From the NCBI RefSeq assembly GCF_057098645.1, contig NZ_CM169472.1: DNA of 64,000 nt, one strand, 5' to 3'. Shown one piece after another: positions 34,463 through 53,662 of this stretch (position 1 is the stretch's first letter; each line of letters opens with the position of its first letter). The notes beneath the pieces are model-generated. The model ran no database searches, was not told the DNA's origin, and saw only the letters and a program-made list of their open reading frames with translations. The position numbers and the translations under genes are program-made.

Positions 34463-36334
34463 TTACAGCGTAAATTCGTTTCCGGGTCCAGTGCCCAGGT
34501 TATTTACTATATAAGCATCTATTCTCTGATCATTAAATCGCCAGCAGTCAATGGCAAGATCCATCAGCAGGCGTTGCCTTGATGTGATGCTTTCCGCAGA
34601 CCAGTCTTGATATTCATATCCATATTTCAGCTTAAAGCGATTTAATGCAGTGTTATCACCAATTGAGTACTGGGAGTGGAGTAATCGAGTCATGATGATT
34701 TCAGAGTTTAAATATTCTGTTTGTTTTTTCAAAAACCAGTCTTCACTCAAATCATTGCAGTTATTGACAGACTGGTTAATTGTACCCTCTAATAATGTTA
34801 CATTACCAAGTTTGTAGAGATAACTTGTTCGATTTACATCAGAGAACTCCCCGTTTTCAGGGGCGTTTCGTACCGTCTGAGGAAGAATATGCTCAATTTG
34901 CATCTGCTGAATAGCCTGCTGGCTCTTTTCCGGAAAACCGCAAAGATGGCGGATATGATTCTCTAATCTACCCAATACATAACGTTGGCGATACTGAGGC
35001 GTAAAATTATAGTCATTAATAATTGAGAATCGTTCTTTAAATTCATCTAAACGCTCCACAACAAAAGGTATAAGTGTTGCTGAAACAACATTTGCAACCT
35101 CTGCTTTCGTTTTCACATCCCGAAGCTTTACAGCCCATTGAGTAAAGCGTTGCTCATATGTCTTCGATTGAATAGCCATTGTATTTGTAAAGAATAAAAA
35201 GCTCTCAAGTTGAGCACCTAAGAAATCCATTACATCATCTGAACAACTAATATCCAATGCCATTAGTAAAACCAAATGCTGACGTGAGCGATATTTATTA
35301 ATATATCCAATGTTACTTACGTTTGGAAAACGGATATTTTCACGCCAGTAGGCTGCTTCATTTGTTGCATTGACCAGGTTAGCGTATCGTTCTGATAATT
35401 TTTCCAATTCTTTGACGAGGACCATAGGGCGTGTCTTATACTGCAACGACAGTTCCCCCTCAGCTGAAATGATCCATTTATATATATCATCTTCACGCAA
35501 AATCCCGTGATGATATCGTGCCATCAGAAAGTAACGTAAAAAACGAAGCGGGTTATCACTTTCGCCGCAAGACTCAAGGTTATTAGTGATGGATTTCCAT
35601 GTTGTCTTTATTGCCGAAAACTGTTCTTCTTTTATCTGACTGAAAATCAAATTTTTAACAAGATCCATAGCATTAAGGCTGGCACCACGCTGATTGATCG
35701 TTTCGAAGATCTTTAATGCGCTACTTAAGTTCTCTGATTCAATGACAACCAGCTCAACTTTTGTTAAAAAAAAGCGAGCGAAGGAGATTAATCCATTCAA
35801 GCTATCTTGCAATTGGTATTTAAGATAATCACGAATGTGATCATACGCGTCAGCCATTTTTTTTACTGAAGCTGTTTCCGCAAAGGTATTGGTTTGCCCT
35901 TCAATTAACCGCGAAATAAATCCTCGACTTTCTTCATATTGAAGATCTAGTCTAATTAGATTTTCCTCACTATTAATATCATAACTAGAGAGCCATTCCT
36001 CAATAGTTTTCAGATATTCCAGCCCTTTTTTGTCAAGTGTATCCAATCTATCTTTTAATAGATCCCGTAAGGCACACATAGTGATGACAATAGTGGTCAA
36101 CCGCTGCTGTCCGTCAATAACATCATGCTTTTCCCCATTCTTTACGATAATAACAGAACCGAGAAAATAACCATTTTGATCTTTCTGCTCTGGTTGGTAT
36201 TCATTGTCTAAATCCATGAGAAACTGTTCAACCTGATCATCAACCTTCCATACATACTCACGTTGATAATCGGGAACTAAAAAATAATAATCGCTTAATT
36301 TTGATATATTTTTTACATCGGCTTCTATTTTCAT
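34463..36334 (-). CDS. GmrSD-family type IV restriction endonuclease-like protein (DUF262 N-terminal, DUF1524 C-terminal)
   Basis: 623-aa ORF; N-terminal DGQQR motif typical of DUF262; C-terminal EHILPQ ... N-rich motif typical of DUF1524 His-Me finger. Confidence 0.65.
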   Translation of the reverse strand: MKIEADVKNISKLSDYYFLVPDYQREYVWKVDDQVEQFLMDLDNEYQPEQKDQNGYFLGSVIIVKNGEKHDVIDGQQRLTTIVITMCALRDLLKDRLDTLDKKGLEYLKTIEEWLSSYDINSEENLIRLDLQYEESRGFISRLIEGQTNTFAETASVKKMADAYDHIRDYLKYQLQDSLNGLISFARFFLTKVELVVIESENLSSALKIFETINQRGASLNAMDLVKNLIFSQIKEEQFSAIKTTWKSITNNLESCGESDNPLRFLRYFLMARYHHGILREDDIYKWIISAEGELSLQYKTRPMVLVKELEKLSERYANLVNATNEAAYWRENIRFPNVSNIGYINKYRSRQHLVLLMALDISCSDDVMDFLGAQLESFLFFTNTMAIQSKTYEQRFTQWAVKLRDVKTKAEVANVVSATLIPFVVERLDEFKERFSIINDYNFTPQYRQRYVLGRLENHIRHLCGFPEKSQQAIQQMQIEHILPQTVRNAPENGEFSDVNRTSYLYKLGNVTLLEGTINQSVNNCNDLSEDWFLKKQTEYLNSEIIMTRLLHSQYSIGDNTALNRFKLKYGYEYQDWSAESITSRQRLLMDLAIDCWRFNDQRIDAYIVNNLGTGPGNEFTL

Positions 36335-36391: not shown

Positions 36392-36901
36392 TCACAAACG
36401 AACAGGAGAGTAGACCCCTTCTACATTACAGCTATCTCCGTCATCAAAAATCAACTCTCCTGCACTATAACCATCCATGGATAAAATAGCCTTTTCATTG
36501 AGAGCCAGACTAAGGCACATTGATGTTTTTATCATATTATCTGTACCATAAATCTCATACCAGTTATCTTCTTTTTTAGAAACCTCTACCTCATACTTTC
36601 CTGAGTCAATATTAACCATGCTAAATACATTATCTACATCACATGAATCCTTGCTATCTGTAAAAATTATTTTTTTATCATAGCCATCAACCCTGAGATA
36701 TGCGTCTTCAGAATAAGCATAAACATAACAATATTTAGTATTAACAAAAGAATCCTTCCCAGTAATTTGATATAAATTACTATCTTTTCTTGTGACATTT
36801 ATTTCCCACGTATTGGCATGAACATAACCTGGAGCCAAAAACAGGGTTAATAAGAACGGTCCAATCTTGGCTTTAAAGTTTCTAACAATTTTGAAAAACA
36901 T
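36392..36901 (-). CDS. secreted protein of unknown function with two tandem Cys-containing repeat domains
   Basis: 169-aa ORF; signal peptide MFFKIVRNFKAKIGPFLLTLFLAPGYVHA; internal repeat NLYQITGKDS...CDVDNVFSMV / NWYEIYGTDN...CNVEGVYSPV. Confidence 0.55.
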   Translation of the reverse strand: MFFKIVRNFKAKIGPFLLTLFLAPGYVHANTWEINVTRKDSNLYQITGKDSFVNTKYCYVYAYSEDAYLRVDGYDKKIIFTDSKDSCDVDNVFSMVNIDSGKYEVEVSKKEDNWYEIYGTDNMIKTSMCLSLALNEKAILSMDGYSAGELIFDDGDSCNVEGVYSPVRL

Positions 36902-36952: not shown

Positions 36953-37708
36953 CTACATATCAGCCAACAACATCCCAGCCATGCCATCCAGCCGTTTCTT
37001 GACCTTTTCCCACCCAGGCATAACCTGCCCCATCAGGCGGTAAAACTCTTCACTGTGGTTGTGCTCAGCAACATGGCATAACTCATGTAGCAAAACATAA
37101 TCGATACATTCTGAGGATGCCTTAACCAGCCATGGATTCAGGGTCAGACAGCCTTTTGCTGAACAGTTGCCCCATTGCGTTTGCATCGCCCGCAGACGTA
37201 TCGGAGGACGCTCACTGACCCAAAGGGTCTGCGGAATCAGTAAATCAAGCCTGCGCTGAAAAACATCTCTGGCACGTTCCCGATACCATTCAGCCAGCAA
37301 GGCTTTAATCTTTTCTGCCGATTTGTGTCTGACAGTCACTTCCAGACGCCCACGCAACATTTTCACTCGTTGCGGCACAGTAGCGTCTTCTGTCACTTTC
37401 AACTGATATTGCTTACCGAGATAATAATGGCTTTCTCCGCTGACATACTGACGCGGAACAATGTGTGTCTGTTGCTCCCTGAAATCACGCAGTTGCTGGT
37501 ATATCCAGCGCCCACGTTTTTTCAGCGCAGACAATACCTCGTGCTCCGGTGTTTCAGGCGGTACAGAGGCCACAACCCGGCAGTCCGGATAAACCTTGAT
37601 GAGCACCCTGCCCTTTACGACCTGACGCGGAACACACTGTACGACGATGACCTCATCACCATAGACAATGCGTAACGCTTTCATTGATGGCGATTCTTTT
37701 TCACTCAT
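36953..37708 (-). CDS. DUF45/YgjP-like zinc metallohydrolase
   Basis: 251-aa ORF with HELCHVAEHNHSEEF (HExxH...NHS); 4-nt overlap with hsdR stop. Confidence 0.6.
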   Translation of the reverse strand: MSEKESPSMKALRIVYGDEVIVVQCVPRQVVKGRVLIKVYPDCRVVASVPPETPEHEVLSALKKRGRWIYQQLRDFREQQTHIVPRQYVSGESHYYLGKQYQLKVTEDATVPQRVKMLRGRLEVTVRHKSAEKIKALLAEWYRERARDVFQRRLDLLIPQTLWVSERPPIRLRAMQTQWGNCSAKGCLTLNPWLVKASSECIDYVLLHELCHVAEHNHSEEFYRLMGQVMPGWEKVKKRLDGMAGMLLADM

Positions 37709-40700
37709 GATTTCATCAAACCAACGCGCAGTATCTGGATGATGGTTTCCACAATACGGTTAACCTGATTCATTCCGGCACCAATTTCCCGGCAGGCCGT
37801 AAACAGCAGTGGTAGCAGACTTGTCTTAACGACTTTCTCAATGTCCTGGGGGTTCAGGGAGTTTTCTGCCACCGCTTTGACGATAATGTTGTCCACGTCA
37901 AAAGCCAGCTTCGTCCACTTATCCTGCACTTGAACGTCTTTTACCACAAAAACCTCAGGTAGCTCTTTTTTAAATACACCGTAATATGCCTGAGCATGCT
38001 TGTTTACCGCCAAAGCATCCGGGATATCACTGAGCTTACGGGCTTTAACCTGTTCTTCAAACTCACGGAATAAGAGGTACTGCTTAAGTGGATGGTCGAA
38101 CAGTTTTTCAGCCTCTTCGATTGCCATACGCAGGAGTCTGGAAAAGGCCTCCTGAGCATACGGATCATCACGCAGCTCCTGCTCAATCATCTTCGTCACA
38201 CGGGTTTTAATGATGTCGGTTTCATTGCGGGTTTTATTGTTATCCCACTCTTCGGGTTTTTCGCTCTTGCCCATTTTACCGACTTCATACACGCCATCCG
38301 GTTCACGAACCTCAACGCCGGTAACATGCTTATCCAGCAATTTTTTCACCTGCTCAGCGTAGTCGTCATAATTGACCTGCTCTCCACTTACCTGCATCGC
38401 CCACTGGCGAAGGCTGGACATCTGTTTTACGGTTTCTTTATAGAGATTTCGGTCTTGTTCCGTAAAGCTCTTGTCGGTGAAGAAGGTAGCGGACTGCAGT
38501 GCCACTTTCAGGCATCCGGCAAAGGCCGTTAACGCCTCGAAGAAATCATCACGGGTTTTCTGATGGATATCGACCATCTCTCCGTCACGTTCTTCCATTT
38601 TAGGCACCAGTACTGCACGTAACTGCTCAGTATCATTTTTGTTTTTAACACCGGCAAATATGGCCCACAACTGGTTATACAGATGCGGCAGACGTTTATA
38701 TTCAGAGCTCATGGCGCTGTACAGCCCGTCAATATCCTTGATGTCGTATCCTCCCTGGGTTCGGGAGGCGAGATCCTGATATTTGCCGATAGTCGTGTCC
38801 AGTTCAGCCAGAATGCCGCGATAATCAATCAGCAGGCCAAACTTTTTCAGTGGATGCAGACGGTTTACCCTTGCAATCGCCTGGATAAGGTTGTGGGACT
38901 TAAGCGGCTTGTCGATATACAGCACGGTATTCTTCGGTTCATCAAATCCGGTGAGCAGTTTATCAACGACGATCAGTAATTTGAGCTTATCATCAGTATC
39001 GAAACGACTGATGATATTGCGGGTATACACAGACTCATCCTGCATGCCGACGTTATCTTTCCACCATTTCGTCACTTCCGGCAGTTTGCTTTCATCCACC
39101 TCAGTATTCCCTTCCCGGGTATCCGGCGGGCTGATAACTACAGCTGACTCAAACAACCCGGCTTCATCAAGATACTTTTTATATTTGATGGCGGAAATCT
39201 TGCTGTCGCAGGCAAGTTGGCCTTTCAGCCCCTCATCAATATTCTTCGAGAAGTGTGTGGCGATATCGAGTGCGATCAGCCGGATGCGGTCATCTGCACT
39301 GTAGACCTCACCTTTACGGGCATATTTACGTTTAAGGTCGGCTTTTTGCGCTTCGCTTAACCCATCGGTAATACGGTCAAACCAGGCATCTATTGCCCGA
39401 TCGTTAACCTCAAGGTCGGGAATACGTTCTTCATACAGCAAAGGTGTAACGGCTTTATCTTCTACCGCTCGCTGCATGGTATAAGCGTGGACAATCGGCC
39501 CGAATTTATTGGTGGTCTTATCTTCTTTTAGCAATGGCGTACCGGTGAATGCCACAAAGGCGGCGTTCGGCAGTGCCAGTTTCATTCGCACATGGTTCTC
39601 ACCCCCCTGGCTGCGGTGTCCTTCATCAATCAGAACGATGATGTCGGGGCTGGTATTGACGCATTCAGGCAATTTTGTCGCTGAGTTAAATTTCTGGATA
39701 AGGGTAAAGATTATACGTTCTTTACCAGAGCCAATCTGCTGTGCCAGCTTCTGACCTGAGGTCGCCATCGCTTTGGCCTTATCATCCTTCCCTGCCAGTT
39801 CGCCACCAGAGACAAAAGTGCCGCTGAGCTGCCCTTCAAGGTCCACGCGGTCCGTCACCACCACAATACGACACTGCTTCAGGCTGTCATGAAGGATCAG
39901 CGCCTTGCTGAGGAATACCATGGTGTAAGATTTACCTGACCTCGTGGTATGCCAGATCACCCCACCTTCCCTGCCCCCGTCTGGTCTGCGGGTACTGATG
40001 CGTTCCAGCAGTCTTTTTATCCCGAACACCTGCTGATAGCGGGCAACAATTTTTCCGGTTTTTTTATCAAACAGGGTGAAGAAGCGGGTCATCTCCAGCA
40101 GACGTTCCGGTGAAAGCAGACTGATGAGCAGCTTATCCTGCCCGCTGACTGCCAGTTCCCCCCCATCGATTAACTGTTGATACCATTTGAGATCGACTGA
40201 AGGACGATGATCAAACAACGCATGAATTTGTTCAGTCGATAACTGATGGTTGCGCAGCGCATACATCTGCGGATCGGTAATATCTTCTTCGCGCCATGCC
40301 GCCCAGAATTTCATTGGCGTATGGCATGTACCGTAGCGCCCGTCATGACCGTTAATCGAAAGTAATAACTGGCTGTAGACAAACAGCTGCGGGATTTCAT
40401 CGTTGAACTGGTTGCGGATACTCTGGGATATCCCCTCGTCAATGGTTGGCCCTTTCTTGCCATGACCAGCCGGGCTTTTCGCTTCAATAACAGCCAGCGG
40501 GATACCATTAACAAAGCAGACAATATCCGGTCTGCGGGTTTCAACACCGCCTGACCGCAATACCGTAAATTCTTCAGTAAAATGGAACTGGTTATTTTCC
40601 GGATGTTCCCAGTCGATCAGCGCAATGGTGGGGTTGACCTTCTTGCCATCGACAAATTCGGTGACGGCGATACCGTAGAGCAGATGGTTATACATCCGTT

Positions 40701-40989
40701 CATTGGCTTTGAGCAGCCCTTCATTCAGCGCCGGAGAACAGACCTGTGATATCAGGTTATCCAGTGCTTTTTCCGATAACTGGCAGTTTTTGCCACCCGC
40801 CATAAAGGAACGCTTCGACAGCTCTTCACGCAGAACCGGACGCAGCACCACCTCATCCTGTTTATAGCCCCGGTAATCCATAATCTGTTTCGGAGATAAA
40901 AACGTCCAGCCGAGGCTGGTCAGTAACGTCAGTGCCGGGATTTTGGCGCTGTATTCTTCCTGGAATTTAGGTTGGTAGTGCTTATCCAC
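37705..40989 (-). CDS. hsdR: type I restriction enzyme R subunit
   Basis: 1094-aa ORF; N-terminal PD-(D/E)xK-like IEAK motif, SF2 helicase motifs including DEGHRS. Confidence 0.85.
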   Translation of the reverse strand: MDKHYQPKFQEEYSAKIPALTLLTSLGWTFLSPKQIMDYRGYKQDEVVLRPVLREELSKRSFMAGGKNCQLSEKALDNLISQVCSPALNEGLLKANERMYNHLLYGIAVTEFVDGKKVNPTIALIDWEHPENNQFHFTEEFTVLRSGGVETRRPDIVCFVNGIPLAVIEAKSPAGHGKKGPTIDEGISQSIRNQFNDEIPQLFVYSQLLLSINGHDGRYGTCHTPMKFWAAWREEDITDPQMYALRNHQLSTEQIHALFDHRPSVDLKWYQQLIDGGELAVSGQDKLLISLLSPERLLEMTRFFTLFDKKTGKIVARYQQVFGIKRLLERISTRRPDGGREGGVIWHTTRSGKSYTMVFLSKALILHDSLKQCRIVVVTDRVDLEGQLSGTFVSGGELAGKDDKAKAMATSGQKLAQQIGSGKERIIFTLIQKFNSATKLPECVNTSPDIIVLIDEGHRSQGGENHVRMKLALPNAAFVAFTGTPLLKEDKTTNKFGPIVHAYTMQRAVEDKAVTPLLYEERIPDLEVNDRAIDAWFDRITDGLSEAQKADLKRKYARKGEVYSADDRIRLIALDIATHFSKNIDEGLKGQLACDSKISAIKYKKYLDEAGLFESAVVISPPDTREGNTEVDESKLPEVTKWWKDNVGMQDESVYTRNIISRFDTDDKLKLLIVVDKLLTGFDEPKNTVLYIDKPLKSHNLIQAIARVNRLHPLKKFGLLIDYRGILAELDTTIGKYQDLASRTQGGYDIKDIDGLYSAMSSEYKRLPHLYNQLWAIFAGVKNKNDTEQLRAVLVPKMEERDGEMVDIHQKTRDDFFEALTAFAGCLKVALQSATFFTDKSFTEQDRNLYKETVKQMSSLRQWAMQVSGEQVNYDDYAEQVKKLLDKHVTGVEVREPDGVYEVGKMGKSEKPEEWDNNKTRNETDIIKTRVTKMIEQELRDDPYAQEAFSRLLRMAIEEAEKLFDHPLKQYLLFREFEEQVKARKLSDIPDALAVNKHAQAYYGVFKKELPEVFVVKDVQVQDKWTKLAFDVDNIIVKAVAENSLNPQDIEKVVKTSLLPLLFTACREIGAGMNQVNRIVETIIQILRVGLMKS

Positions 40990-41058: not shown

Positions 41059-42843
41059 TTATGATGAAAAGAACGGCGAGTCCCGATAAAGGCGATTGTA
41101 CTTGACCTGTTCTGTTTCGCCCTTGTTTACATTACCAAATTTCTCCTGATGCGTCGTACAGCAGGAACCACAGGATGCACAAATAAATCGTCCTTCTGAA
41201 CATTTTTCATGCAAATCCCTGGCGTCAATTATTTCGCTGCATTTGTAACCAATACAGTGATTAATGTAATGCCCGATACCAAACTGTTCGCACGAATGAC
41301 TGGCACATTTAAAGACGGTCAGGCGATACGCGGCCTGGAAAGGTTTTTTCACAAATCCTTTCGACTTTGTATCCCAGACGCTGACTTCCACACGAGCATA
41401 TTTCATATCTGGAACCATCAGCACCCCACAACTTCGGCAATGCAAGCGGGAATGTAATTCTCTGATACGATTGAAATACCCAGCCAGTTTAATTGGGAAA
41501 TCCCGCTTAGAAGGTTCGCCTGCAATCAGATAGGTCATGCCATAGTGGGCAAGCCAGTCATAAATAGTGAAGTCGATGTAATCCCGACTGAGGTCGGGTA
41601 GTACCTGCGGATCATGGCAGATTTTCGAACGACAAAGGAATTTTTTCTCTATCGTTCCGTCAGGTTGTTTTGCATTCCAGTGAAATGCCTCACAGGATAA
41701 TTTTAAATTCCGGGAACGAATTTTCAATGAGCTACACTGTGGGAACAATTTGAAAACAGAAGGATGGCTTACCGGGATTTTACCCGACAACACTCCCTGC
41801 CATATCTCATGCAGAATAATACTCAGAACGGACTGTTCATCGTTACGCCCAATCAGCGGTAACAATTTACTCAGAATAAAGTATTCAGGGTCAGAAGAAA
41901 TTTCAGTATTCGACTCAATATCATTAACAAAACTGAAATCTTTCCTGAACATCTTCTGTTTAATCAAATACTTATTGACAAAAGGACTAATCACGGAATG
42001 TTTATAAAATTGCTCTCTCGATGAGAATTTCTGCTGATAGGCATCACGGACAAATGGTTGTATATCCATTTTATTTTTCGTGAAACTACGTCGAACAAAA
42101 TTCTCTATATCATCATGCCGATGTTCAAGAATCCGCTCGCTGCTTATACAATCGTAAAATGCCAGGTAGAGAATAGCACTTATAGATATATGGCTGAGTA
42201 ATTCATTGATGATGTCCGATGTTGAAGCCCCCTGGCAATCCGTAGCCGCAGAACACCTTTTCACCCAAACAGCGAACTGATCAATGTTATTATCGATAAA
42301 TGACGAAGGCATGACTGCAGGAGATATTTGTTGTGCGGTCAAATCATCAAAATTCTTATCAGAGGCGAAAAGTGCAAACTGGTTATCGTAGTTACGTGAT
42401 TTTAAAAATAGCGGCAAGACTTTTGTAGCAGCTATATCACTGGTAACTAACCGAATTATAGCCCTTTCGCCAAAGGACTGAGTGAGAAAATTAATAACGC
42501 AGTCACGATAACGCCAACGAGCGAAATCAACGCCCTCCTCAATAATAGCCCGGAGATATTCAATAAGGAGCTCAGCCGTCTCCTCATCTGTTTTATCAAG
42601 AATGTGAACATTAAAAGCCGTAGGCTTACCATTTTTACCTGTACCTTCCCTGAACAGCACCGGTGCATTGTCTGCGGGTGTATAGTTCCGGCTTATCTCA
42701 TTCTTATGAAAAAACAGCTCATTACCATTCTCTGATAAGAGAAAGCCAAAGTTATTCTCCCGATCCGTTTTGCTGTTGTAGCCTCCGAACCAGAGAACAT
42801 TTCCCATGTACCACCGGGAACGATCCAGATTGTTCACTGCCAT
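41059..42843 (-). CDS. protein of unknown function: N-terminal cold-shock-like domain, C-terminal Cys/His-rich putative zinc-ribbon region
   Basis: Start chosen at MAVNNLDR with RBS GAAGGGGG 7 nt upstream (594 aa); WFGGYNSKTDRENNFGFL resembles the CSD KWFN..KGFGFI core; C-terminal clusters CRSCG, CASHSC, CASCGSCC. Confidence 0.55.
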   Translation of the reverse strand: MAVNNLDRSRWYMGNVLWFGGYNSKTDRENNFGFLLSENGNELFFHKNEISRNYTPADNAPVLFREGTGKNGKPTAFNVHILDKTDEETAELLIEYLRAIIEEGVDFARWRYRDCVINFLTQSFGERAIIRLVTSDIAATKVLPLFLKSRNYDNQFALFASDKNFDDLTAQQISPAVMPSSFIDNNIDQFAVWVKRCSAATDCQGASTSDIINELLSHISISAILYLAFYDCISSERILEHRHDDIENFVRRSFTKNKMDIQPFVRDAYQQKFSSREQFYKHSVISPFVNKYLIKQKMFRKDFSFVNDIESNTEISSDPEYFILSKLLPLIGRNDEQSVLSIILHEIWQGVLSGKIPVSHPSVFKLFPQCSSLKIRSRNLKLSCEAFHWNAKQPDGTIEKKFLCRSKICHDPQVLPDLSRDYIDFTIYDWLAHYGMTYLIAGEPSKRDFPIKLAGYFNRIRELHSRLHCRSCGVLMVPDMKYARVEVSVWDTKSKGFVKKPFQAAYRLTVFKCASHSCEQFGIGHYINHCIGYKCSEIIDARDLHEKCSEGRFICASCGSCCTTHQEKFGNVNKGETEQVKYNRLYRDSPFFSS

Positions 42844-42865
42844 GAGCAAGCCCCCTTCCGCTTTG

Positions 42866-43549
42866 TCAGTGCAGGCAGCACTTTTTAAATTTTTTACCAC
42901 TGCCACACTGACACGGGTCATTACGACCGGGCAGTTTTTCTGCCCCCTTCACGGGAACAGGCCGGGATGATGCCTCTGACATTCTCACCGACAACCAGTG
43001 CTGGTAAAGCGCCAGTGCCGCAGGCTGAATGAGAGTAATACTCTGTTCAAATTGAACAGGTGACATTTTCTCAACCACTGGGAAGTTCTTTTCAATACCA
43101 TGAAGGGCTATCGCCTCCAGCGAGGGACGTAAGGCCTCTGGCAAGGCTGACCAGTCATCCAGAGACCGGCCTTTCATATACCCGAAACACCACTCTTCGA
43201 CGATGGTATATGTCTTCCCCTTCACCTCACGTCCATTGAAAATCGGTTCAAACTGTTCAGGGGCCTCATACAGGCAGCCAGCGATATCGTTCATATGCTG
43301 AAAACACAGCCCCACAAAACGCGTCATCTCTTTTTCAGTGGTCCAGCGAGGGTGGTAATCACCTCGCCCCCAGATAGCACTGAGCCAGGTATTAGGGGAA
43401 ATCGTATTCGGGCCAGAGACAATCGCCGTCAGAAAGCCATCCAGCTCAGAGAAACAGAGCACAGAGTCATCATTGCCGTATTTCATCAACACCTCTTCCA
43501 GCCAGTCGATTTCCCGGTCAATCAGCGGCCCGCTTTTCGTCAGTTTCAT
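42866..43549 (-). CDS. YecA-like UPF0149 protein with SEC-C motif (paralogue of chromosomal yecA)
   Basis: 227-aa ORF colinear with YecA at roughly 60 percent identity by eye, ends [24 protein letters not shown] overlap with hsdS stop; stop 22 nt before next gene. Confidence 0.7.
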   Translation of the reverse strand: MKLTKSGPLIDREIDWLEEVLMKYGNDDSVLCFSELDGFLTAIVSGPNTISPNTWLSAIWGRGDYHPRWTTEKEMTRFVGLCFQHMNDIAGCLYEAPEQFEPIFNGREVKGKTYTIVEEWCFGYMKGRSLDDWSALPEALRPSLEAIALHGIEKNFPVVEKMSPVQFEQSITLIQPAALALYQHWLSVRMSEASSRPVPVKGAEKLPGRNDPCQCGSGKKFKKCCLH

Positions 43550-44188
43550 TCGGCAACCGCCTCATCGACCTTAACACGACGTTTGCCAGTCAGTAGCTGT
43601 TGCATCAGGGCTTTTTTCTCGTCTTTCAGGCAGGCGAGTTTTTTCTCCAGCGTGGAGATTTCAGCGTCGGCAGCGGAAAGGACGGCGGCGATTTTTTGTT
43701 GTTCTTTGATATCTAATGGCAACCTAAAGTCTTTCTCTTTAAGTTCTCGCATATGTCTGCTGTAACCTAAATTCGGAATATCTGTATTTGAAAGAAGATA
43801 GTATCCAAGTTTTGGTTCAAGTATTTTGCTAGTTTTTATTACTTGCGTTCCATCAGCACCGGGACAAAACACAAACTCAATCCATTTGACGCATCTTGTA
43901 TGATCGCCAAAAACAATCACAGGCACGTCCGAATAAACCTCTAAATTATTACAGTACCCAGCAATTCGACTTTGCCCTTGATCGATTATAGGGATGGAAC
44001 CTGACTGTAAATAATCGGAAGATTTGACTTGCGCCGATTTTTTATTTGCAACAATGAAAGCATTATCAAACGTTAAATATACCCACTCCCCATTAAACCT
44101 CCCCCCATTCTCATCCAGCAAGCGTTTTTGTCCGGTAAGCAATTGCTGCATCAGGGCTTTTTTCTGTTGCTGGCTGTTGGTGAGAAGC

Positions 44189-45245
44189 GGCTTTGTTGAA
44201 TAAATCAGATTTCGGGTAAGTCTCCCCCGTAGCGGGTTGTGTTTTCAGGCAATACGCACGCTTTCAGGCATACCTGCTTTCGTCATTTTGTTCAGCGCTC
44301 GTACCAGGGCCATAGCCTCCGCAACCTGACCATCGTAGTCACGCAGCGTCAGTGAACCCCCGAACAGCTGTTTTACCCGGTACATCGCCGTTTCCGCTAT
44401 CGAGCGACGGTTGTAATCTGTTGTCCATTTCCACCGCGCATTACTCCCGGTCATTCGCTGATTAGCCACTGCACGGTTACGGTCTGCATATTCACCGGGC
44501 CAGTAGCCCGCACCTTTTCGGGGAGGGATAAGCGCGCTGATTTTCTTACGCCGCAGTTCATCGTGACATAGCCGGGTATCGTAAGCGCCATCGGCGGCGG
44601 CTGACCTGATTTTCCGGTGGGTTTGCCGGATTAACCCGGGGAAGGCCTCTGAGTCCGTAACGTTGTTCAGCGACAGGTCTGCACAGATGATTTCATGTGT
44701 TTTACTGTCAACGGCGAGATGCAGCTTACGCCAGATACGGCGGCGTTCCTGGCCATGCTTTTTGACTTTCCACTCGCCTTCACCGAAGACCTTCAGCCCG
44801 GTGGAATCAATCACCAGATGTGCGATTTCACCCCGGGTGGGCGTTTTGAAACTGACATTAACCGACTTTGCCCGCCTGCTGACACAGCTGTAATCCGGGC
44901 AGCGTAGCGGAACGTTCATCAGAGAAAAAATGGAATCAATAAAGCCCTGCGCAGCGCGCAGGGTCAGCCTGAATACGCGTTTAATGACCAGCACAGTCGT
45001 GATGGCAAGGTCAGAATAGCGCTGAGGTCTGCCTCGTGAAGAAGGTGTTGCTGACTCATACCAGGCCTGAATAGCTTCATCATCCAGCCAGAAAGTTATG
45101 GAGCCACGGTTGATGAGGGCTTTATTGTAGGTGGGCCAGTTGGTGATTTTGAACTTTTGCTTTGCCACGGAACGGTCTGCGTTGTCGGGAAGATGCGTGA
45201 TCTGATCCTTCAACTCAGCAAAAGTTCGATTTATTCAACAAAGCC
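44189..45245 (-). mobile_element. IS903-like element (IS5 family), copy 1, 1057 bp
   Basis: Terminal inverted repeats GGCTTTGTTGAATAAATC; 9-bp target duplication GTGAGAAGC at 44180-44188 and 45246-45254. Confidence 0.9.
44245..45213 (-). CDS. IS903-like transposase
   Basis: 322-aa ORF; recognised by eye as IS903/IS102-type transposase. Confidence 0.85.
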   Translation of the reverse strand: MKDQITHLPDNADRSVAKQKFKITNWPTYNKALINRGSITFWLDDEAIQAWYESATPSSRGRPQRYSDLAITTVLVIKRVFRLTLRAAQGFIDSIFSLMNVPLRCPDYSCVSRRAKSVNVSFKTPTRGEIAHLVIDSTGLKVFGEGEWKVKKHGQERRRIWRKLHLAVDSKTHEIICADLSLNNVTDSEAFPGLIRQTHRKIRSAAADGAYDTRLCHDELRRKKISALIPPRKGAGYWPGEYADRNRAVANQRMTGSNARWKWTTDYNRRSIAETAMYRVKQLFGGSLTLRDYDGQVAEAMALVRALNKMTKAGMPESVRIA

Positions 45246-45815
45246 GTGAGAAGCTTTTCCGTCACCGAAATCGCCTCATCCCAGGTTGACAGAATTTTAA
45301 CGATTCTCTTTTGTTCAGACAGTGGGGGGATATTAAATGGCCACTTAAACCAACTATCTAACTTAAAAATCATTTTCTCTATGTGCACACCAATGCTAGA
45401 GTGGAAGCAGGTTTGCTGGAAATATAGAGACTCCGATAGAAATTCCATATAAGGAAGATAAAAACCGGACTTCCCTGTAAGCACACAATATTCATTCGAT
45501 ACAATTGAGCCAGAAAGTTCTTTAGGTACAAGACCGCAAGCACCGTGCACAATTTGTCGTTTTGATATGAGAAAGTCGCCTTCTTTAATATAGAATTGAC
45601 TTTTTACGGAGATATCTTTTCCTTTAAGATGCTCACGTCTTATTACGCCACCTCTGGAGCGCTTTACTGTAACTAAGTCATACTCTTGATTATCTTGTAT
45701 ATATGCCTTTCTTGCCTCTATATTTAAGCACTTTTCTAATGATAACTTTTGCCATCCTGTAGGTAGCATTCCAAGGATCGGTTTTCCAGCTTTAACGCTC
45801 ACTGGGTAAAGCGAA

Positions 45816-47339
45816 TCACGAGCCATAACCCAACTCCTTCAAATACCCTGCCATCTCAACTTCCAGCTTCGCCAGTTCCACCTTCAGTTGCTCACGCTCT
45901 GCTCGCACCGCCACCAGGTCAATCTCATCCTCTTCTTCAAAGGTATCGACATAGCGCGGAATATTGAGGTTGTAATCGTTGTCCTGAATTTCCTTCAGGC
46001 TGGCAAGATAGGCGTATTTCTCGACGTTATCGCCATCACGGTAGGTCTTGACGATTTTCTTAATGTTTTCTTCGCTAAGCTGGTTCTGGTTTTTACCTGC
46101 CTTGAATTCACGGCTGGCATCGATAAACAGCACCTTGTCATCAACTTTCTACTTTTTGAAAATCAGAATCGCAGCCGGAATCCCCGTACCGTAGAACAGT
46201 TTTTCCGGCAGACCAATTACCGCATCCAGCAAATTTTCGTCGATCAGTTTCTGGCGAATTTTACCTTCGCTGGAGCCACGGAAAAGCACACCGTGTGGCA
46301 CAACTACGCCCATACGGCCAGTTCCCGGTTTCAGGGTTTCGATCATATGCGAGATAAAAGCGTAATCTCCTTTAGTCTTCGGCGGTACACCGCGACGAAA
46401 ACGGCCAAACTTATCGTTCTCGGCCTCGTCATGGCCCCACTTATCGAGGCTGAACGGTGGGTTAGCGGTCACGATATCAAACAGCATCAGGTCGCCATTT
46501 TTATCGAGCAGCTTCGGGTTACGAATGGTATCGCCCCACTCGATTTTATGGTTGTCTTCCCCGTGCAGGAACATATTCATTTTCGCCAGCGACCACGTAG
46601 AACCGATCGCTTCCTGACCGAACAAGGCATAGTTACGACTATCATGCCCGGAGACAATTTTACGCCCACACTTCATCAATAATGAACCGGAACCACAGGC
46701 TGGATCGCAGATGGTATCACCCGGTTGCGGATCGAGCAGTTCTGCAATCAGGTCCGAAACTTCCGGCGGGGTATAGAACTCCCCGGCTTTCTGCCCACCG
46801 CTGGCGGCAAAGTTTTTGATCAGGTATTCGTAAGCATTGCCGATAACGTCCAGCGTACCGACACGACTCGGCTTCAGGTTGAGATCTTCACCGGCGAAGT
46901 CTTCCAGTAGCTGACGCAGTATGGTGTTTTTCTGTTTTTCTTCGCCAAGACGATCGGTGTTAAACGAAATATCCTGGAACACGCTTTTCCCGGCATCTTT
47001 CAGTTTGGTTCCGTTGGCTTCTTCGATTGCATGCAGAGCCTGATCGATACGCTCACCGTTACCCAGCTCATGGCGGCGTTCGTACAGCGCATAAAAGCTG
47101 GCACTTTTTGGCAGTACAAAACGCTCGTTGGCCATCATCGCTTCAATCAGTTCCGGCGCATCGCCATACTGTTCTTTGTATTCGTCATAGTGATCCTGCC
47201 AGACATCTGAAATGTACTTGAGGAACAGCATGGTAAGGATAAAGTCTTTATAGGTATCAGCACTGATGGTGCCACGGAACGTATCACACGCGGCCCACAG
47301 GGCTTTGTTGATCGTGTCCTGACTGATTTTGTCGTTCAT
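45816..47339 (-). pseudogene. hsdM: type I R-M methyltransferase HsdM with in-frame amber codon at 46149-46151
   Basis: 396-codon ORF with N6-adenine MTase motifs (DPACGSG, NPPF) stops at ...AAILIFKK TAG, then continues in frame KVDDKVLFIDAS... for 105 more codons; overlaps hsdS start. Confidence 0.8.
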
Positions 47340-47714
47340 GAATCATCCTGGTCTGAAGAAAAAGCTAGCGATGCAGGGCTTTGCATCTTAAAAATTGCGG
47401 TAAATGATACCGTAAGATGCCTCCCCTGACACGCCAATATCGCAGCATTCAGGTTTGCATCATCCCCGTAATATCGACATGAGACAGACTGACACAACCT
47501 GGCTCGTCACTCGCTAAAAACCAATTATCTTAGTAAGATAGCATCCATATTAGCCATGGTGTAAAACTGCCGTTGGGGTAATGATGATCCATATATCACC
47601 CATTCTGGTGTGTGAAGCTGACATCATCCATAATCGGCAACGTTGATGCCCTTTGATAGTAATGATGACCGTCAATGTGATTCCCCTGCTGACTGGAGGT
47701 CTCCGGATAGAATG

Positions 47715-48878
47715 AGTATTGCCAACTGCGCTATCGGCCCACTTTATGATGAGCAAATAAAAAAAACACTTATGTATGCTGACCATAAATTCAAGCGGCT
47801 AATGAATACACGAATGTCGTTACTCGAACATTTATCACCCCACTATGACTTATCTTCCATGTTCAGCTATGAGTTGGAGGGAAGAGTTTTTCGGATTAAA
47901 TTGATCAAGCCTGAGATTAAATTATCTCGCCAGCAGTTGATCTTCTCCTCACTCTTTTTAGAGCAAGATTTTCTAAAAGAATATAAAAAACACATCTCAA
48001 ATACTCTACAAAAAACAATCAAACAGTGCATTAAAAAATACAAACAAAAAATCAAAATCGAGCCTTCTATTTTAGATTACATATCAGCATCACCCCGCAA
48101 TACGTCGAGTTATGTATTACATGAGATAGTTTCTCAATGTGAACATTGCGATGAAATTCGCAATATTAAAAATGATATATTGCTTGATGAACTAACGTTG
48201 AATGGCCGGATCACTAACATTTCAAAATACATTAAAAATAGTCAAGATAAAATCGTCGAACATATAGAGTTCTGCACTCATAAACTTGTCAATATAAGTC
48301 GTAAGAATCGTCACATTTTCAACAGCACCACAATACCTGGTAGAAAACCTAACATCACTGGTGTTTTACTTTGCCTTTCGGAATTGATAAGCAACCTGCA
48401 TATTTACCCAACTGAAATTAATAATATAAGCAATGCCATAATATTAAGCATTGTATACTCTGTACTTCAACATCTTCAATCTGGAAGAGAAACAGAAAAA
48501 ACCAAAACCTCTCCAGCACTGAATTTCATCCCCACCATCATCGCACCTCATGTTTTCTACCTGGCGAAACGCGAAAAATCCTCTCAATATAAATACATTG
48601 AAAAAGAATATCTTCTCGGCCAGTTACTTATATTTTTGATGTATAAAACAGTTTACTACTCGATTCATAGCATCAGGGTAAGCCGTAAGCATTTCTATAA
48701 CGATATAAAACCAAAATTAATGACACTAAAAAAAGAAAGCTTATTAAGCACCAATTTCATGAAAAATCGAAGAGAGATTAGTGGTGAAGTCTTTGGTGAT
48801 GTTGGTAGTATTGAGGCTGATTTTCGAGAAATCAGCACATTGATTCATCGGCGAAAGGCTCTGTTTATTTCCTTTTAA
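47715..48878 (+). CDS. hypothetical protein, AT-rich, Lys/Ile/Asn-rich
   Basis: Long ORF in strongly AT-rich DNA; start chosen at MSIANCAIG; no recognisable motifs. Confidence 0.4.
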   Translation, partial: SIANCAIGPLYDEQIKKTLMYADHKFKRLMNTRMSLLEHLSPHYDLSSMFSYELEGRVFRIKLIKPEIKLSRQQLIFSSLFLEQDFLKEYKKHISNTLQKTIKQCIKKYKQKIKIEPSILDYISASPRNTSSYVLHEIVSQCEHCDEIRNIKNDILLDELTLNGRITNISKYIKNSQDKIVEHIEFCTHKLVNISRKNRHIFNSTTIPGRKPNITGVLLCLSELISNLHIYPTEINNISNAIILSIVYSVLQHLQSGRETEKTKTSPALNFIPTIIAPHVFYLAKREKSSQYKYIEKEYLLGQLLIFLMYKTVYYSIHSIRVSRKHFYNDIKPKLMTLKKESLLSTNFMKNRREISGEVFGDVGSIEADFREISTLIHRRKALFISF

Positions 48879-50126: not shown

Positions 50127-50271
50127 TTTCTTAATATAATGGCGACATGGAATTGTGTTGCCATTATATCCGAATCAGAATTTTTCACCTGATGAACTGT
50201 GAAAACTGAGACTGGCAGACAGTAATCTCGCACCGTATTTTTTCTGTGTTATTTTACAGGAGAAATACGAT

Positions 50272-51400
50272 GCCCATTCTGGATCTGCGTTTCAGCAACA
50301 AATCACTTCACCAACTTCCCCATCCCCTCACGGGCTGTCAGGAATACCGTGATATTCACTGCCAAAACCTGCGTGCTCTGGTGTATCCCAATCGGATCAC
50401 GCTGGCCTTTCGTGCCACTATAAACAATCAGCGTATATATGAACCCCTGGGTCAGTTCCCTCAGCTCTGCGTTGAGGATGCCCGTCAGCATGTGATGAAA
50501 CTGCTTGCTGATAAAAATCGTCTTGCGGTTCAGTCCCGTCGATTCACTGTGGAACAGGCCATCAATGACCTGTGGCTACCGGATTTGCAGTTGTATAAAA
50601 AGAGTCCTCAGTCAGAGTTGTCAAAACTCAACCTCTACGTTCGCCCGTTCTGGGGCAAGCGGCAACTTCGCGACATCACGGCAGGAGAACTAGAACAATA
50701 TGCTGCTGGCTTACGGGAAAAATTACGTCCGTCAACAGTAAACCGTATCCTCGCAATATTGTCCAAAATATGCTCTCTGGCAGTACGTGCTGGATGGATC
50801 ACGCATTCCCCGATGTCACATGTCCGCTATCTGAAAGAAAATAACATTCGCTATCGCACACTATCAGCGACAGAAATCCCGCGCTTTATTGACGCGGCAA
50901 CAGCGCTGCAAACACCGGCAGCTGATTCTATATTGCTTGCTCTTTATACGGGGATGCGTATTGGTGAGGTATGTACCCTGAAATGGGAGTACTGGCACCT
51001 GGATATGCATCAACTCATACTGCCTGATACAAAGTCCGGACACCCTTTCACCTGCCCACTTGCACCTCCAGCCATTGCAGTTGTCCAGTGCCAGCAGGAC
51101 CTGATGCTCAGCAAAACTTACATTTTTCCGCGACTAACCGACAATGCCCGCCCTCTGGCATATCCGCGTGCAACCTTTGCCCGTATTTGCCGGGATGCCG
51201 ACATTGATAACCTGCGGATGCATGACCTGCGCCGTACCTTTGCCACCCGGGTACTACAGGCGACCGGGGATATTGCAATCGCTTCCCATCTGCTAAATCA
51301 CCATTCACTCACGGCGACCCGTCGCTACGCTTTTCACAATGCAGCGACATCACACGCAGTGGTTTCTCAGGTCATTGAAAGTTATGACACGAAAAAATGA
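50272..51400 (+). CDS. tyrosine-type site-specific integrase
   Basis: RBS AGGAG then ATG; catalytic signature R (YTGMRIGE), HDLRRT, HH, RYAFH with Tyr. Confidence 0.75.
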
Positions 51401-51440
51401 ACCAATGATCTGTGATTCGTGAAAGCAGTTCGCAGAAAGA

Positions 51441-51608
51441 TTGAATCTTTCTGCATCCACGGTTGCGTCAGATATTTCTCGCAATCCCGGAAAACTCCCG
51501 CCCTTCATCAGAATTGGGCGGGCTATACGATTCTCTCTTGACGATATTGTTGATTGGGAAAATGCACATCGTCAAAACAAACTTAAAGGTGATATAAATG
51601 GTTACTAA
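51441..51608 (+). CDS. AlpA-like excisionase / HTH regulator (short ORF, no ATG; possibly TTG-initiated or a remnant)
   Basis: Translation LNLSASTVASDISRNPGKLPPFIRIGRAIRFSLDDIVDWENAH resembles AlpA-type HTH; frame opens right after a TGA. Confidence 0.4.
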   Translation: MNLSASTVASDISRNPGKLPPFIRIGRAIRFSLDDIVDWENAHRQNKLKGDINGY

Positions 51609-51786
51609 GAACACGGAAAATAACGCTAATAATGCACTGAACATTCTTCCCGAATCAGCAAGCACAGCTGTAGACAACGATGAAAAATATCTGTCCTTTG
51701 CATTAGTTCTCGCTATCACGATTATGGGCAACTGAACCGCCCCGGGAATCCTGGAGACTAAACTTCCTGAGAAAGAGGTAAACAGG

Positions 51787-52113
51787 ATGACTAAAAATAC
51801 TCGTTTTTCCCCTGAAGTCCGTCAACGGGCAGTCCGTATGGTTCTGGAAAGTCAGGGCGAATATGACTCACAATGGGCGACAATTTGTTCCATTGCTCCA
51901 AAGATTGGCTGTACGCCGGAGACTCTGCGTGTCTGGGTTCGCCAGCATGAGCGGGATACCGGGGGCGGTGATGGAGGGCTCACCACCGCTGAACGTCAGC
52001 GTCTGAAAGAGCTGGAGCGTGAAAATCGTGAACTGCGCCGCAGTAACGATATCCTTCGCCAGGCTTCCGCTTATTTTGCGAAGGCGGAGTTCGACCGCCT
52101 CTGGAAAAAATGA
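51787..52113 (+). CDS. IS629 OrfA (transposase N-terminal HTH part)
   Basis: 108-aa [22 protein letters not shown]... Confidence 0.85.
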
Positions 52114-53000: not shown

Positions 53001-53662
53001 GTTCACAGATAAAACACTCTCCAGGAAACCCGGGGCGGTTCAAACTTAGTAAAGCTCATCGGCACAGATGGCTTCATACTTTATACCTACACCCTGCAGG
53101 ACACGGCTACTGCTCGTGCTGTTTTTAATGAATTAGCCAGGCGTCTCAAAAATTTCAATCGTCAGGAGGAGGTCTACACCACCGATTCCCTCACCTTTCG
53201 AATGAAATACATTTACGGTGTTACCCTGTTCGAACATGATAGTAAATCTATCCTTAACCTTTTTGATAAGAAGGGTTATCCAGTATTGAGTGAATCAGGA
53301 GAACCCGGTTCTCTTGATGATATGTATCTTGACATTCAAGCCCGATTACATGGCGGCTACGCCTCAAAAAAGTTTCTTCATTTACATGAACATTGTCTGT
53401 TATCTGCACACGTTACCCCGTCTGTGGAAAAGACGCAACGTGGTATCCTGATTAAAGCAGGCAGGAAACTCGTTTCCTTTATCTATGCAGATAATGAATC
53501 TCGCAAAAATGATATTTTCAAAGCTGTAGTAGACGTCATTAAATCCTGATTCATTATGCCGGGTGCGTATTCCGCTCTATTCGATCACGGATTGGCATCG
53601 AAGTCCGATCAGCGATTCGCATCCATTCGATCAACCGGGAACTTAACTTTTTCTACCGCTTT

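What the first reader, a model, noticed from the sequence alone, without database searches (positions are those of the whole stretch)
36392..36901. Secreted 169-aa protein with an internal tandem duplication inside a defence operon
A clear Sec signal peptide is followed by two roughly 55-aa repeats that each contain a Cys pair and a D-x-D/G-Y motif. A periplasmic protein between the DUF45 hydrolase and GmrSD genes is unexpected for a cytoplasmic defence system; it could be an immunity or superinfection-exclusion factor.
Basis: seen in the sequence. Interest (0 to 1): 0.45.

Follow-up and report, generated by a model that had tools for sequence, protein, structure and literature searches.

The report
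Mobile secreted two-repeat protein, function unknown
A real, conserved E. coli gene encodes a small exported protein made of two copies of a novel beta-barrel module; it travels on its own between prophages, plasmids and defence islands, most likely acts in the periplasm against incoming phage, and is not part of the restriction enzymes beside it.

Summary
The ORF at 36392-36901 (minus strand) encodes 169 aa. It has a Sec-type signal peptide (cleavage predicted after VHA29) and two homologous repeats of about 68 aa (37% identity, E 5e-17), each with one invariant Cys pair.

- **Real gene:** dN/dS is 0.14-0.20.
- **Structure:** AlphaFold gives a confident all-beta model of two six-stranded units, with no significant PDB or viral structural relative.
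- **No known family:** no Pfam, NCBIfam, PHROG or PADLOC family covers it.
- **Family size:** a profile search finds about 800 clusters. Most are 160-aa secreted proteins. Some are fused to PKD, CARDB or TSP3 surface domains.

"Inside a defence operon" is true only by position. The gene plus the GmrSD gene form a low-GC cargo that starts exactly at the ygjP stop codon, in 141 of about 513 E. coli genomes carrying that hsdR-ygjP module. The closest GmrSD relatives lack it.

Homologues sit in quite different mobile settings:
- a Leclercia island, where only the ORF is shared;
- a DISARM-like locus;
- a prophage slot downstream of an Mnt-like repressor, which is P22's sieA position;
- a probable integron;
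- a mobile 11-gene Hsp70/AAA/peptidoglycan-binding/RDD operon.

My best guess is an autonomous periplasmic entry-blocking (superinfection-exclusion-like) factor, with confidence about 0.4. This function is untested.

The parts
36392..36901 (-). CDS of the 169-aa secreted two-repeat protein (stop codon 36392-36394)
   Evidence: ORF listing and sequence. 26 close homologues and about 800 family clusters. dN/dS 0.20 against Leclercia.
36815..36901 (-). Signal peptide, residues 1-29, predicted SPase I site VHA|NT
   Evidence: n/h/c-region heuristics. A29 is invariant in A1. 49 of 54 family members pass at the aligned site.
36605..36811 (-). Repeat 1 (residues 31-99), a six-stranded beta unit with C58/C87 and the conserved Tyr-rich loop Y57-C-Y-V-Y-A-Y-S-E65 (36707-36733)
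   Evidence: Repeat alignment E 5e-17. Invariant C58, Y59, Y61, Y63, S64, E65. AF2 strands E29-40, 43-46, 51-55, 65-72, 75-80, 86-96 with pLDDT >90.
36395..36601 (-). Repeat 2 (residues 101-169), a six-stranded beta unit with C129/C158
36906..36911 (-). Shine-Dalgarno AAGGGG. It lies within the ~45 nt upstream stretch that is the only flanking DNA shared with the Leclercia copy.
   Evidence: Sequence. Pairwise DNA alignment.
34463..36334 (-). GmrSD (DUF262/DUF1524) type IV restriction gene. It is co-acquired with the target as a low-GC two-gene cargo.
   Evidence: Pfam GmrSD_N and GmrSD_C. PADLOC HEC-06/Orf5/SspE-like. Found in 143-144 E. coli genomes, the same number as the target. GC 38% and 33% against 49-50% for hsdR/ygjP.
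36953..37708 (-). YgjP-like (DUF45/M48) metallopeptidase, last gene of the conserved type I R-M backbone. The variable cargo starts right after its stop codon (36952/36953).
   Evidence: Pfam PF01863, E 3e-58. 519 genomes carry it. The homology break sits at query positions 853-856 of a query starting at 36100.
37705..40989 (-). hsdR (type I restriction subunit R). It overlaps the ygjP start by 4 nt.
   Evidence: Pfam HSDR_N, SWI2_SNF2, T1R_D3-like.

Best explanation
The gene is an autonomous, horizontally mobile single-gene module. It is not a subunit of the flanking type I R-M or GmrSD systems.

Proposed pathway: the product is exported by Sec, cleaved after Ala29, and folds in the periplasm into a 16-kDa acidic protein (pI 4.3). 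The protein has two tandem small six-stranded beta-barrel repeats, each locked by one disulfide (C58-C87 and C129-C158). It belongs to a large extracytoplasmic family that no database describes.

Proposed function: a periplasmic binding protein that protects the carrier cell against incoming phage at the entry stage, in the manner of superinfection exclusion. The conserved Tyr-rich loop of repeat 1 is the likely contact surface. The target would be either an injected phage component or a host envelope component needed for DNA translocation.

Shown here by computation:
- it is a real gene under purifying selection;
- it has signal-peptide features;
- it has the duplication;
- it has the conserved Cys;
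- it has a confident all-beta model;
- it moves independently of its neighbours;
- it sits in a prophage slot co-transcribed with a lysogeny repressor.

Inferred, not shown: export and cleavage, disulfide pairing, the binding site, and the anti-phage activity.
For: - **Real, conserved gene.** 26 close homologues, 798 family clusters at E<=1e-3, and dN/dS of 0.20 and 0.14.
- **Export.** Signal-peptide features in 49 of 54 members and four Cys in 51 of 54 mature proteins. Family domains are fused to the C-termini of PKD, Big_9, CARDB, MopE, TSP_3 and CarboxypepD_reg proteins.
- **Fold.** The AF2 model has pLDDT 85 overall and >90 in the mature part, with 2 x 6 strands.
- **Independence from neighbours.** The cargo boundary falls at the ygjP stop codon, and the junction is intact in only 141 of about 513 genomes. 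Alternative cargo in other strains is IS + 2x DUF262 + Hhe. The nearest GmrSD relatives lack the gene. The Leclercia copy shares only the ORF and sits between PDDEXK_4, AAA_15 and dynamin-like genes. Another copy lies inside a DISARM-like locus.
- **Mobility.** Copies at 98-100% identity occur in Citrobacter, Franconibacter and Klebsiella IncFIB plasmids. Others lie in a probable integron array, next to YoeB/YefM, and next to a resolvase or a Prim-Pol.
- **Prophage link.** Island copies and prophage copies form one clade. In Dickeya, Pectobacterium and Brenneria prophages the layout is ANT/KilA-N <- Arc | Mnt-like -> homologue (start 2 nt after the stop) -> RcsF-like lipoprotein. This matches P22's ant <- arc | mnt -> orf59a -> sieA.
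Against: - No experiment, and no homology to any characterised exclusion or defence protein. P22 SieA gives BLASTP E 4.4. There is no PADLOC hit and only a weak unannotated PHROG hit.
- Guilt by association with mobile DNA does not distinguish anti-phage from other accessory functions.
- At least one distant family member lies in an ordinary chromosomal context next to ppk.
- Sequenced phage genomes (INPHARED) hold only weak partial hits, in Helicobacter pullorum phage records.
- No own promoter or terminator stands out. Sites found are no more frequent than in shuffled sequence, so expression conditions are unknown.
- Signal-peptide and disulfide calls are heuristic.
Confidence: 0.4

Rival explanations
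1. It is a generic envelope accessory ('moron') protein with a function unrelated to phage. Examples would be binding a cell-wall or surface glycan or a metal, envelope-stress protection, adhesion, or host interaction. On this reading it hitch-hikes in variable regions of mobile elements.
For: - The family is large and widespread. Members are fused to adhesin-type and surface domains such as PKD, CARDB, TSP_3 and MopE.
- A distant member sits in a housekeeping context.
- The Tyr-rich conserved loop and the acidic D-rich loops would suit carbohydrate or cation binding.
- Prophage morons often encode host-fitness factors (established knowledge).
Against: The close relatives (>=45% identity) are repeatedly wedged between dedicated anti-phage genes in three unrelated arrangements, and sit in a lysogeny-repressor operon. 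This is more specific than random cargo.
Confidence: 0.25
2. It is a detached periplasmic component of the mobile Hsp70/AAA/PG-binding/RDD trans-envelope system. Solo copies would act as decoys or dominant-negative inhibitors of that system (anti-defence), or as orphan remnants.
For: - Homologues at 53% identity are a fixed member of an 11-gene operon present in 21 loci.
- Mobile elements are known to capture single components of defence systems as inhibitors (established knowledge; see for example the abstract of PMC11257639, listed).
Against: - The Hsp70-operon copies form a separate, recently spreading clade with 70-100% identity across hosts. They are not shown to be ancestral to the solos.
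- None of the partner genes is in the window.
- The operon's own function is unknown.
- Solos are under purifying selection in genera where the operon was not seen.
Confidence: 0.12
3. It is an orphan periplasmic immunity protein against an interbacterial toxin that acts in the periplasm (a T6SS, CDI or bacteriocin-type peptidoglycan or membrane effector).
For: It is a small, acidic, disulfide-bonded periplasmic protein carried on islands and plasmids. Orphan immunity genes are known to accumulate in variable islands (established knowledge).
Against: - No toxin, Rhs, VgrG or CdiA gene was seen next to any of the roughly 50 loci examined.
- The two contexts that recur across genera are a prophage lysogeny slot and the Hsp70 operon.
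Confidence: 0.08
4. It is a functional partner of the adjacent GmrSD or type I R-M/YgjP genes.
For: - Same strand, with gaps of 51-57 nt and no convincing intervening terminator.
- Strict 1:1 co-occurrence with this GmrSD allele in E. coli and on Klebsiella plasmids.
Against: - A periplasmic location separates it from cytoplasmic nucleases.
- GmrSD relatives at 77% and 73% identity lack it.
- GmrSD homologues number in the thousands across phyla, whereas the target is rare.
- Leclercia, DISARM-like and prophage copies have no GmrSD.
- About 372 E. coli genomes with the same hsdR-ygjP lack it.
Confidence: 0.04

Closest known systems
P22 SieA (superinfection exclusion A) and the immI region
   Same: Same genomic slot in temperate phages. 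The gene is co-oriented with and downstream of the mnt-type maintenance repressor, divergent from arc-ant, and convergent with virion genes. The size is similar (164 against 160-169 aa) and both target the envelope.
   Different: No sequence similarity (E 4.4). From memory, SieA is an inner-membrane protein. The present protein is predicted to be a soluble periplasmic beta protein with a cleavable signal peptide.
Phage P1 Sim and other periplasm-exposed exclusion factors (T5 Llp, phi80/N15 Cor, T4 Imm/Sp)
   Same: All are small envelope- or periplasm-located products of mobile elements that act before or at DNA entry. Sim is exported and processed (from memory).
   Different: No homology was detected to any annotated PHROG or PADLOC model. 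Llp and Cor are lipoproteins, whereas this protein has no lipobox. The mechanism here is untested.
Ltp of Streptococcus thermophilus phage TP-J34
   Same: The architecture is analogous: a signal sequence followed by two tandem repeat domains, encoded in the lysogeny module, blocking DNA injection (from memory).
   Different: Ltp is a Gram-positive lipoprotein with helical repeat domains. Here the repeats are beta-barrels with disulfides. The two are not homologous.
PmrD / small six-stranded beta-barrels (best structural match)
Zorya-type envelope-anchored defence (conceptual comparison for the Hsp70/AAA/PG-binding/RDD operon)
   Same: A mobile operon that combines peptidoglycan-binding membrane proteins with cytoplasmic ATPases.
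   Different: No ZorA/ZorB homology and no PADLOC hit apart from the AAA protein resembling IetA. Its function is unknown, and the E. coli window lacks the operon.

Membership tests
Sec/SPase I-exported proteins | N-terminal positively charged n-region, hydrophobic h-region, small residues at -3/-1, and no lipobox Cys at +1 | tested here: met
   Heuristic only, because SignalP was unavailable. 4 K/R, h-region KD 2.26, V-H-A|N. 49 of 54 family members pass at the aligned site.
Sec/SPase I-exported proteins | Experimental export and cleavage | not testable with these tools
   Needs PhoA/Bla fusions or N-terminal sequencing.
GmrSD type IV restriction system (as accessory subunit) | Conserved co-occurrence with GmrSD across relatives | tested here: not met
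   GmrSD relatives at 77% and 73% identity lack it. Target homologues in Leclercia, prophages, the DISARM-like locus and the Hsp70 operon have no GmrSD.
Type I R-M / YgjP module (as accessory subunit) | Conserved co-occurrence with hsdR-ygjP | tested here: not met
   141-143 of 513-519 E. coli genomes. The break point is at the ygjP stop codon.
Known anti-phage defence proteins (PADLOC-DB v2) | Match to a PADLOC HMM | tested here: not met
   0 families for the target.
Known superinfection-exclusion proteins (P22 SieA; annotated PHROGs) | Sequence homology | tested here: not met
   SieA BLASTP E 4.4. The only PHROG hit is phrog_3579, unknown function, E 0.004.
Known superinfection-exclusion proteins | Location in the prophage lysogeny/immunity module, co-transcribed with a maintenance repressor | tested here: met
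   True for the prophage homologues, not for the E. coli copy itself. The Mnt-like stop and the target start are 2 nt apart in Dickeya. The same layout is seen in Pectobacterium and Brenneria and matches P22.
Known superinfection-exclusion proteins | Blocks infection by phage when expressed | not testable with these tools
   Requires plaque and DNA-entry assays.
Pfam Y_Y_Y (PF07495) | Score at or above the gathering threshold (26.6 bits) | tested here: not met
   17.7 bits, and only 1 of 54 members matches.
NCBIfam LIC_11826 / LBBP_01157 families (Leptospira) | Score at or above the curated cut-off (240 / 270 bits) | tested here: not met
   23.6 and 22.3 bits. At most this reflects a shared domain.
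Hsp70/AAA/PG-binding/RDD mobile operon (uncharacterised) | Presence of the partner genes next to the homologue | tested here: not met
   tblastn with all 10 partner proteins finds none in the window or in the enterobacterial solo loci.
Periplasmic lysozyme inhibitors (Ivy, MliC/PliC, PliG) | Fold or sequence similarity | tested here: not met

The most novel reading that the evidence does not exclude
The family marks a previously undescribed class of periplasm-acting conflict modules. In its full form it is a subunit of a mobile trans-envelope machine. That machine combines a cytoplasmic Hsp70-like ATPase and an AAA ATPase with two bitopic membrane proteins (one with a peptidoglycan-binding domain), two secreted proteins and an RDD membrane protein. 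It is carried by prophages, Tn7-like transposons and plasmids. In Enterobacterales the two-barrel protein has been freed as a minimal stand-alone periplasmic anti-phage (or anti-defence) factor that shuttles between prophage lysogeny modules and defence islands.
Probability: 0.2. Interest if true: 0.75.

Novelty: new variant of a known kind. Interest (0 to 1): 0.48.

Why it matters
Nearly all catalogued bacterial defence genes act in the cytoplasm or in the membrane. Soluble periplasmic factors that stop phage at entry are few and come from unrelated families. This gene adds a structurally new, widely mobile, unannotated family of about 800 clusters that no domain database covers. The family repeatedly lodges among defence genes and in a prophage slot used for superinfection exclusion.

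If it does block entry, it would be a compact single-gene resistance determinant that current defence-finding tools miss. It would also be relevant to phage therapy, because it circulates in E. coli (including O145:H28 outbreak strains), on Klebsiella plasmids, and in Citrobacter and Enterobacter. It also points to an uncharacterised 11-gene trans-envelope operon that is spreading across Proteobacteria.

Tried and rejected
- **Domain databases.** Pfam, NCBIfam, PHROGs and PADLOC on the protein and on 54 family members gave nothing above threshold.
- **Coupling to GmrSD.** Rejected.
- **Coupling to ygjP/hsdR.** Rejected.
- **The 252-aa gene preceding the DISARM-embedded homologue.** I tested whether it is a YgjP relative, which would have been a shared neighbour. 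It is not.
- **A 169-aa ORF near the Atlantibacter GmrSD.** It is an HNH protein, not a homologue.
- **Own promoter or terminator.** Site counts were at or near the shuffled expectation.
- **Literature.** Searches for the protein accessions and for the Hsp70/AAA/PG-binding/RDD operon found nothing. The Hsp70-containing systems described in PMC7159879 and PMC11090510 are different systems.
- **The Hsp70 operon as ancestral context.** I first read it that way. I then rejected this as unproven, because the 21 operon loci are 70-100% identical. They are one recently spreading cassette and a separate clade.
- **Wider alignment as a search query.** A2 was too divergent for the search for related loci.

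Full report
**1. What is there**

The window is E. coli chromosome. The order ftnA-yecH-tyrP-yecA is followed by an island of about 29 kb that ends at the leuZ-cysT-glyW tRNA genes. The ORF at 36392-36901 on the minus strand encodes 169 aa. It sits 51 nt downstream of a YgjP-like/DUF45 metallopeptidase gene, which itself overlaps hsdR by 4 nt. It sits 57 nt upstream of a GmrSD gene. All four are on the same strand.

**2.

- **Signal peptide.** The N-terminus MFFKIVRNFKAKIGPFLLTLFLAPGYVHA|NTWE has a basic n-region, a hydrophobic core and V-x-A. It has no lipobox. The same features occur at the aligned site in 49 of 54 family members.
- **Duplication.** Residues 31-99 and 101-169 are homologous, with 37% identity and E 5e-17. 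The repeats are therefore about 68 aa, not about 55 aa.
- **Cysteines.** Each repeat has one Cys pair with identical 29-residue spacing. All four Cys are invariant among the 19 close homologues, and C87 and C158 are conserved in at least 90% of the wider alignment.
- **Mature protein.** It is 140 aa, 16 kDa, pI 4.3, with 12 Tyr. Repeat 1 carries an almost invariant loop, Y-C-Y-x-Y-A-Y-S-E.
- **Purifying selection.** dN/dS is 0.20 for E. coli against Leclercia and 0.14 for Dickeya against Pectobacterium.

**3. Structure and family**

AlphaFold2, run on the 19-sequence alignment, gives a confident model: pLDDT 85 overall, above 90 throughout the mature part, pTM 0.71. The model is two units of six beta strands.

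It has no meaningful structural relative:
- Foldseek finds nothing at E<1e-3 in PDB or BFVD.
- A PDB sequence-profile search finds nothing.

No Pfam, NCBIfam, PHROG or PADLOC model reaches threshold for the protein or for any of 54 relatives. Public records call it 'hypothetical protein'.

A profile search of 1.84 billion representative proteins finds 798 clusters at E<=1e-3. Most are proteins of about 160 aa with the same layout. A few carry the two-repeat unit at the C-terminus of proteins with PKD, Big_9, CARDB, MopE, TSP_3, CarboxypepD_reg or MORN domains, most of which are typical extracytoplasmic or surface modules. This agrees with export.

**4. It is not part of the neighbouring defence systems**

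- The hsdR-ygjP backbone occurs in 519 complete E. coli genomes. The target occurs in 143 and this GmrSD allele in 143-144.
- A query across both junctions is fully covered in 141 genomes. In roughly 372 others, homology stops exactly at the ygjP stop codon, window 36952/36953.
- The target (33% GC) and GmrSD (38% GC) are therefore a two-gene cargo behind a backbone of 49-50% GC. Other strains carry IS + 2x DUF262 + Hhe at the same place.
- The same block occurs at 98-100% identity in Citrobacter braakii, Franconibacter helveticus and Klebsiella IncFIB plasmids.
- GmrSD homologues are very numerous. The nearest relatives outside this clade that I examined (77% and 73% identity, in Yersinia intermedia and Atlantibacter) have no such neighbour.
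- The Leclercia homologue (76% identity) lies in a related hsdR-ygjP island, between PDDEXK_4, AAA_15 and dynamin-like genes. DNA homology to E. coli covers only the ORF and about 45 nt upstream.

**5. Other contexts of close relatives (>=45% identity)**

(a) A DISARM-like locus, between a DrmD/DpdE-like helicase and a DrmMI-like methylase.

(b) Prophages of Yersinia, Dickeya, Pectobacterium and Brenneria, in a fixed slot between a giant polyvalent LPD/MuF protein gene and tail genes. In the last three genera the layout is ANT/KilA-N <- Arc | Mnt-like -> homologue -> RcsF-like lipoprotein. The homologue's ATG lies 2 nt after the repressor's stop codon. The P22 record shows the same architecture with orf59a and sieA in that position. 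SieA itself is unrelated in sequence.

(c) A probable integron cassette array, with an IntI-type integrase, co-oriented small ORFs and palindromes after several cassettes. I did not verify attC sites.

(d) Next to YoeB/YefM, a resolvase, a Prim-Pol or an NTP_transf_8 gene.

(e) A mobile 11-gene operon, described in section 6.

A neighbour-joining tree puts the enterobacterial island and prophage copies in one clade. The DISARM-embedded copy is sister to it, and the operon copies form a separate clade. One distant member lies in an ordinary chromosomal context.

**6. The Hsp70 operon (side finding)**

Twenty-one loci carry some or all of the same co-oriented set (several sit on short or truncated contigs):
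- a 123-aa protein;
- an Hsp70-like ATPase (~760-830 aa);
- an AAA ATPase (FtsH/PAN-like, resembling IetA);
- a bitopic membrane protein with PG_binding_1;
- a 672-aa protein with an N-terminal zinc ribbon;
- a 214-aa cytoplasmic protein;
- the two-barrel protein;
- a second bitopic paralogue;
- a 217-aa secreted protein;
- a 4-TM RDD protein;
- a 2-TM peptide.

The set is 70-100% identical across Acidovorax, Comamonas, Lysobacter, Pseudomonas, Aeromonas, Shewanella, Methylotetracoccus and others. It lies next to a phage tail gene, next to type I R-M genes, behind TnsE of a Tn7-like element, and on an IncP plasmid. It is thus a recently spreading mobile cassette of unknown function with both cytoplasmic and periplasmic parts. 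I found no description of it. None of its partner genes is in the E. coli window.

**7. Most likely mechanism**

The protein is exported by Sec and cleaved after A29. It is then oxidised by DsbA to one disulfide per repeat, and acts as a soluble periplasmic binding protein. The evidence points to an autonomous module in phage-host conflict for three reasons:
- its closest relatives sit in a prophage operon headed by a lysogeny-maintenance repressor, at P22's sieA position;
- the gene has independently lodged among anti-phage genes three times;
- it moves as a single ORF.

I therefore propose that it blocks infection at the entry stage, by binding an ejected phage protein or a host periplasmic component needed for DNA transfer. 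I put this at about 0.4. Export, cleavage, disulfides, the binding site and the phenotype are all inferred.

**8. Rivals**

| Rival | Confidence |
|---|---|
| Accessory envelope protein unrelated to phage | 0.25 |
| Detached component, decoy or inhibitor of the Hsp70 trans-envelope system | 0.12 |
| Orphan immunity protein to a periplasm-acting toxin | 0.08 |
| True partner of GmrSD or type I R-M | 0.04 |

The last rival conflicts with topology and with the distribution data.

**9. Novelty and score**

The kind of element is known: a small exported exclusion or moron protein of mobile elements. The protein family, its fold and its distribution are undescribed. I therefore rate it 'new variant of a known kind'. 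Interest is moderate (0.48). The function is unproven, but the family is large, invisible to current defence annotation, and linked to an unexplored trans-envelope operon.

Noticed in passing
L047:495-12121 (Shewanella plasmid); also L013, L014, L016-L019, L022-L026, L038-L041, L046: A conserved mobile 11-gene operon. Its members are a 123-aa protein, an Hsp70-like ATPase, an AAA ATPase resembling IetA, a bitopic PG_binding_1 protein, a 672-aa zinc-ribbon protein, a 214-aa protein, the two-barrel secreted protein, a bitopic paralogue, a 217-aa secreted protein, an RDD 4-TM protein and a 2-TM peptide. It is 70-100% identical across distant Proteobacteria. It lies next to a phage tail gene, next to type I R-M genes, behind Tn7-like TnsE, and on an IncP plasmid. 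It is not in PADLOC v2 and I did not find it in the literature.
   Followed up: partly
window 43546-47339: The type I R-M of this strain looks inactivated. hsdS is split into 201-aa and 203-aa ORFs by an IS with a DDE_Tnp_1_5 transposase (44245-45213). The hsdM ORF (46149-47339) is only 396 aa and its N6_Mtase match is truncated. A second copy of the same IS transposase lies at 60742-61710.
   Followed up: partly
window 41059-43549: Two genes lie between hsdS and hsdR. One is a 620-aa protein with a sub-threshold cold-shock-domain match (22.5 bits against a 27-bit cut-off; RefSeq calls it 'cold shock domain-containing protein'). The other is a YecA-like SEC-C/UPF0149 paralogue of 227 aa. This arrangement is conserved on Klebsiella plasmids, and some E. 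coli lack the 620-aa gene. The DISARM-like locus L007 that carries a target homologue also has an S1/OB-fold protein and a SEC-C protein.
   Followed up: no
window 50246-62410: The distal part of the island holds a tyrosine integrase (50246-51400), IS3-type (52110-53000, 56595-57500) and IS21-type (istA/istB, 53663-56081) elements, and two large ORFs with no Pfam match (411 aa at 47643-48878; 731 aa at 57940-60135). The island ends at tRNA-Leu(taa) 62653-62739.
   Followed up: partly
L005:8498-8878, L008:8498-8875, L011: Immediately downstream of the prophage homologues is a 125-126-aa lipoprotein (lipobox LSAC) with a sub-threshold match to RcsF (25.3 bits against a 29-bit cut-off). This may be a prophage-encoded mimic of the Rcs envelope-stress sensor. 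Yersinia-type prophages carry instead a 276-aa membrane/coiled-coil protein.
   Followed up: partly
L021:4315-8444: A homologue (64% identity to the operon-type protein) is the fifth of a row of co-oriented small ORFs, divergent from an IntI-type integrase (Phage_int_SAM_4 + Phage_integrase). Imperfect palindromes follow several ORFs. This looks like an integron cassette array, but attC sites were not verified.
   Followed up: partly
L006:5956-13876 (Leclercia sp. J807): The variable cargo behind hsdR-ygjP here is a different candidate defence cluster: two PDDEXK_4 nucleases flanking the target homologue, an AAA_15 ATPase, and two dynamin-like GTPases of about 570 aa.
   Followed up: no
L043, L044 (E. 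coli ATCC 43886, GZ2408P): In other E. coli strains the same slot after the ygjP stop codon carries IS1/IS3 remnants, two DUF262 genes and the anti-phage gene hhe. The ygjP 3' end therefore behaves as a defence-cargo exchange point.
   Followed up: partly
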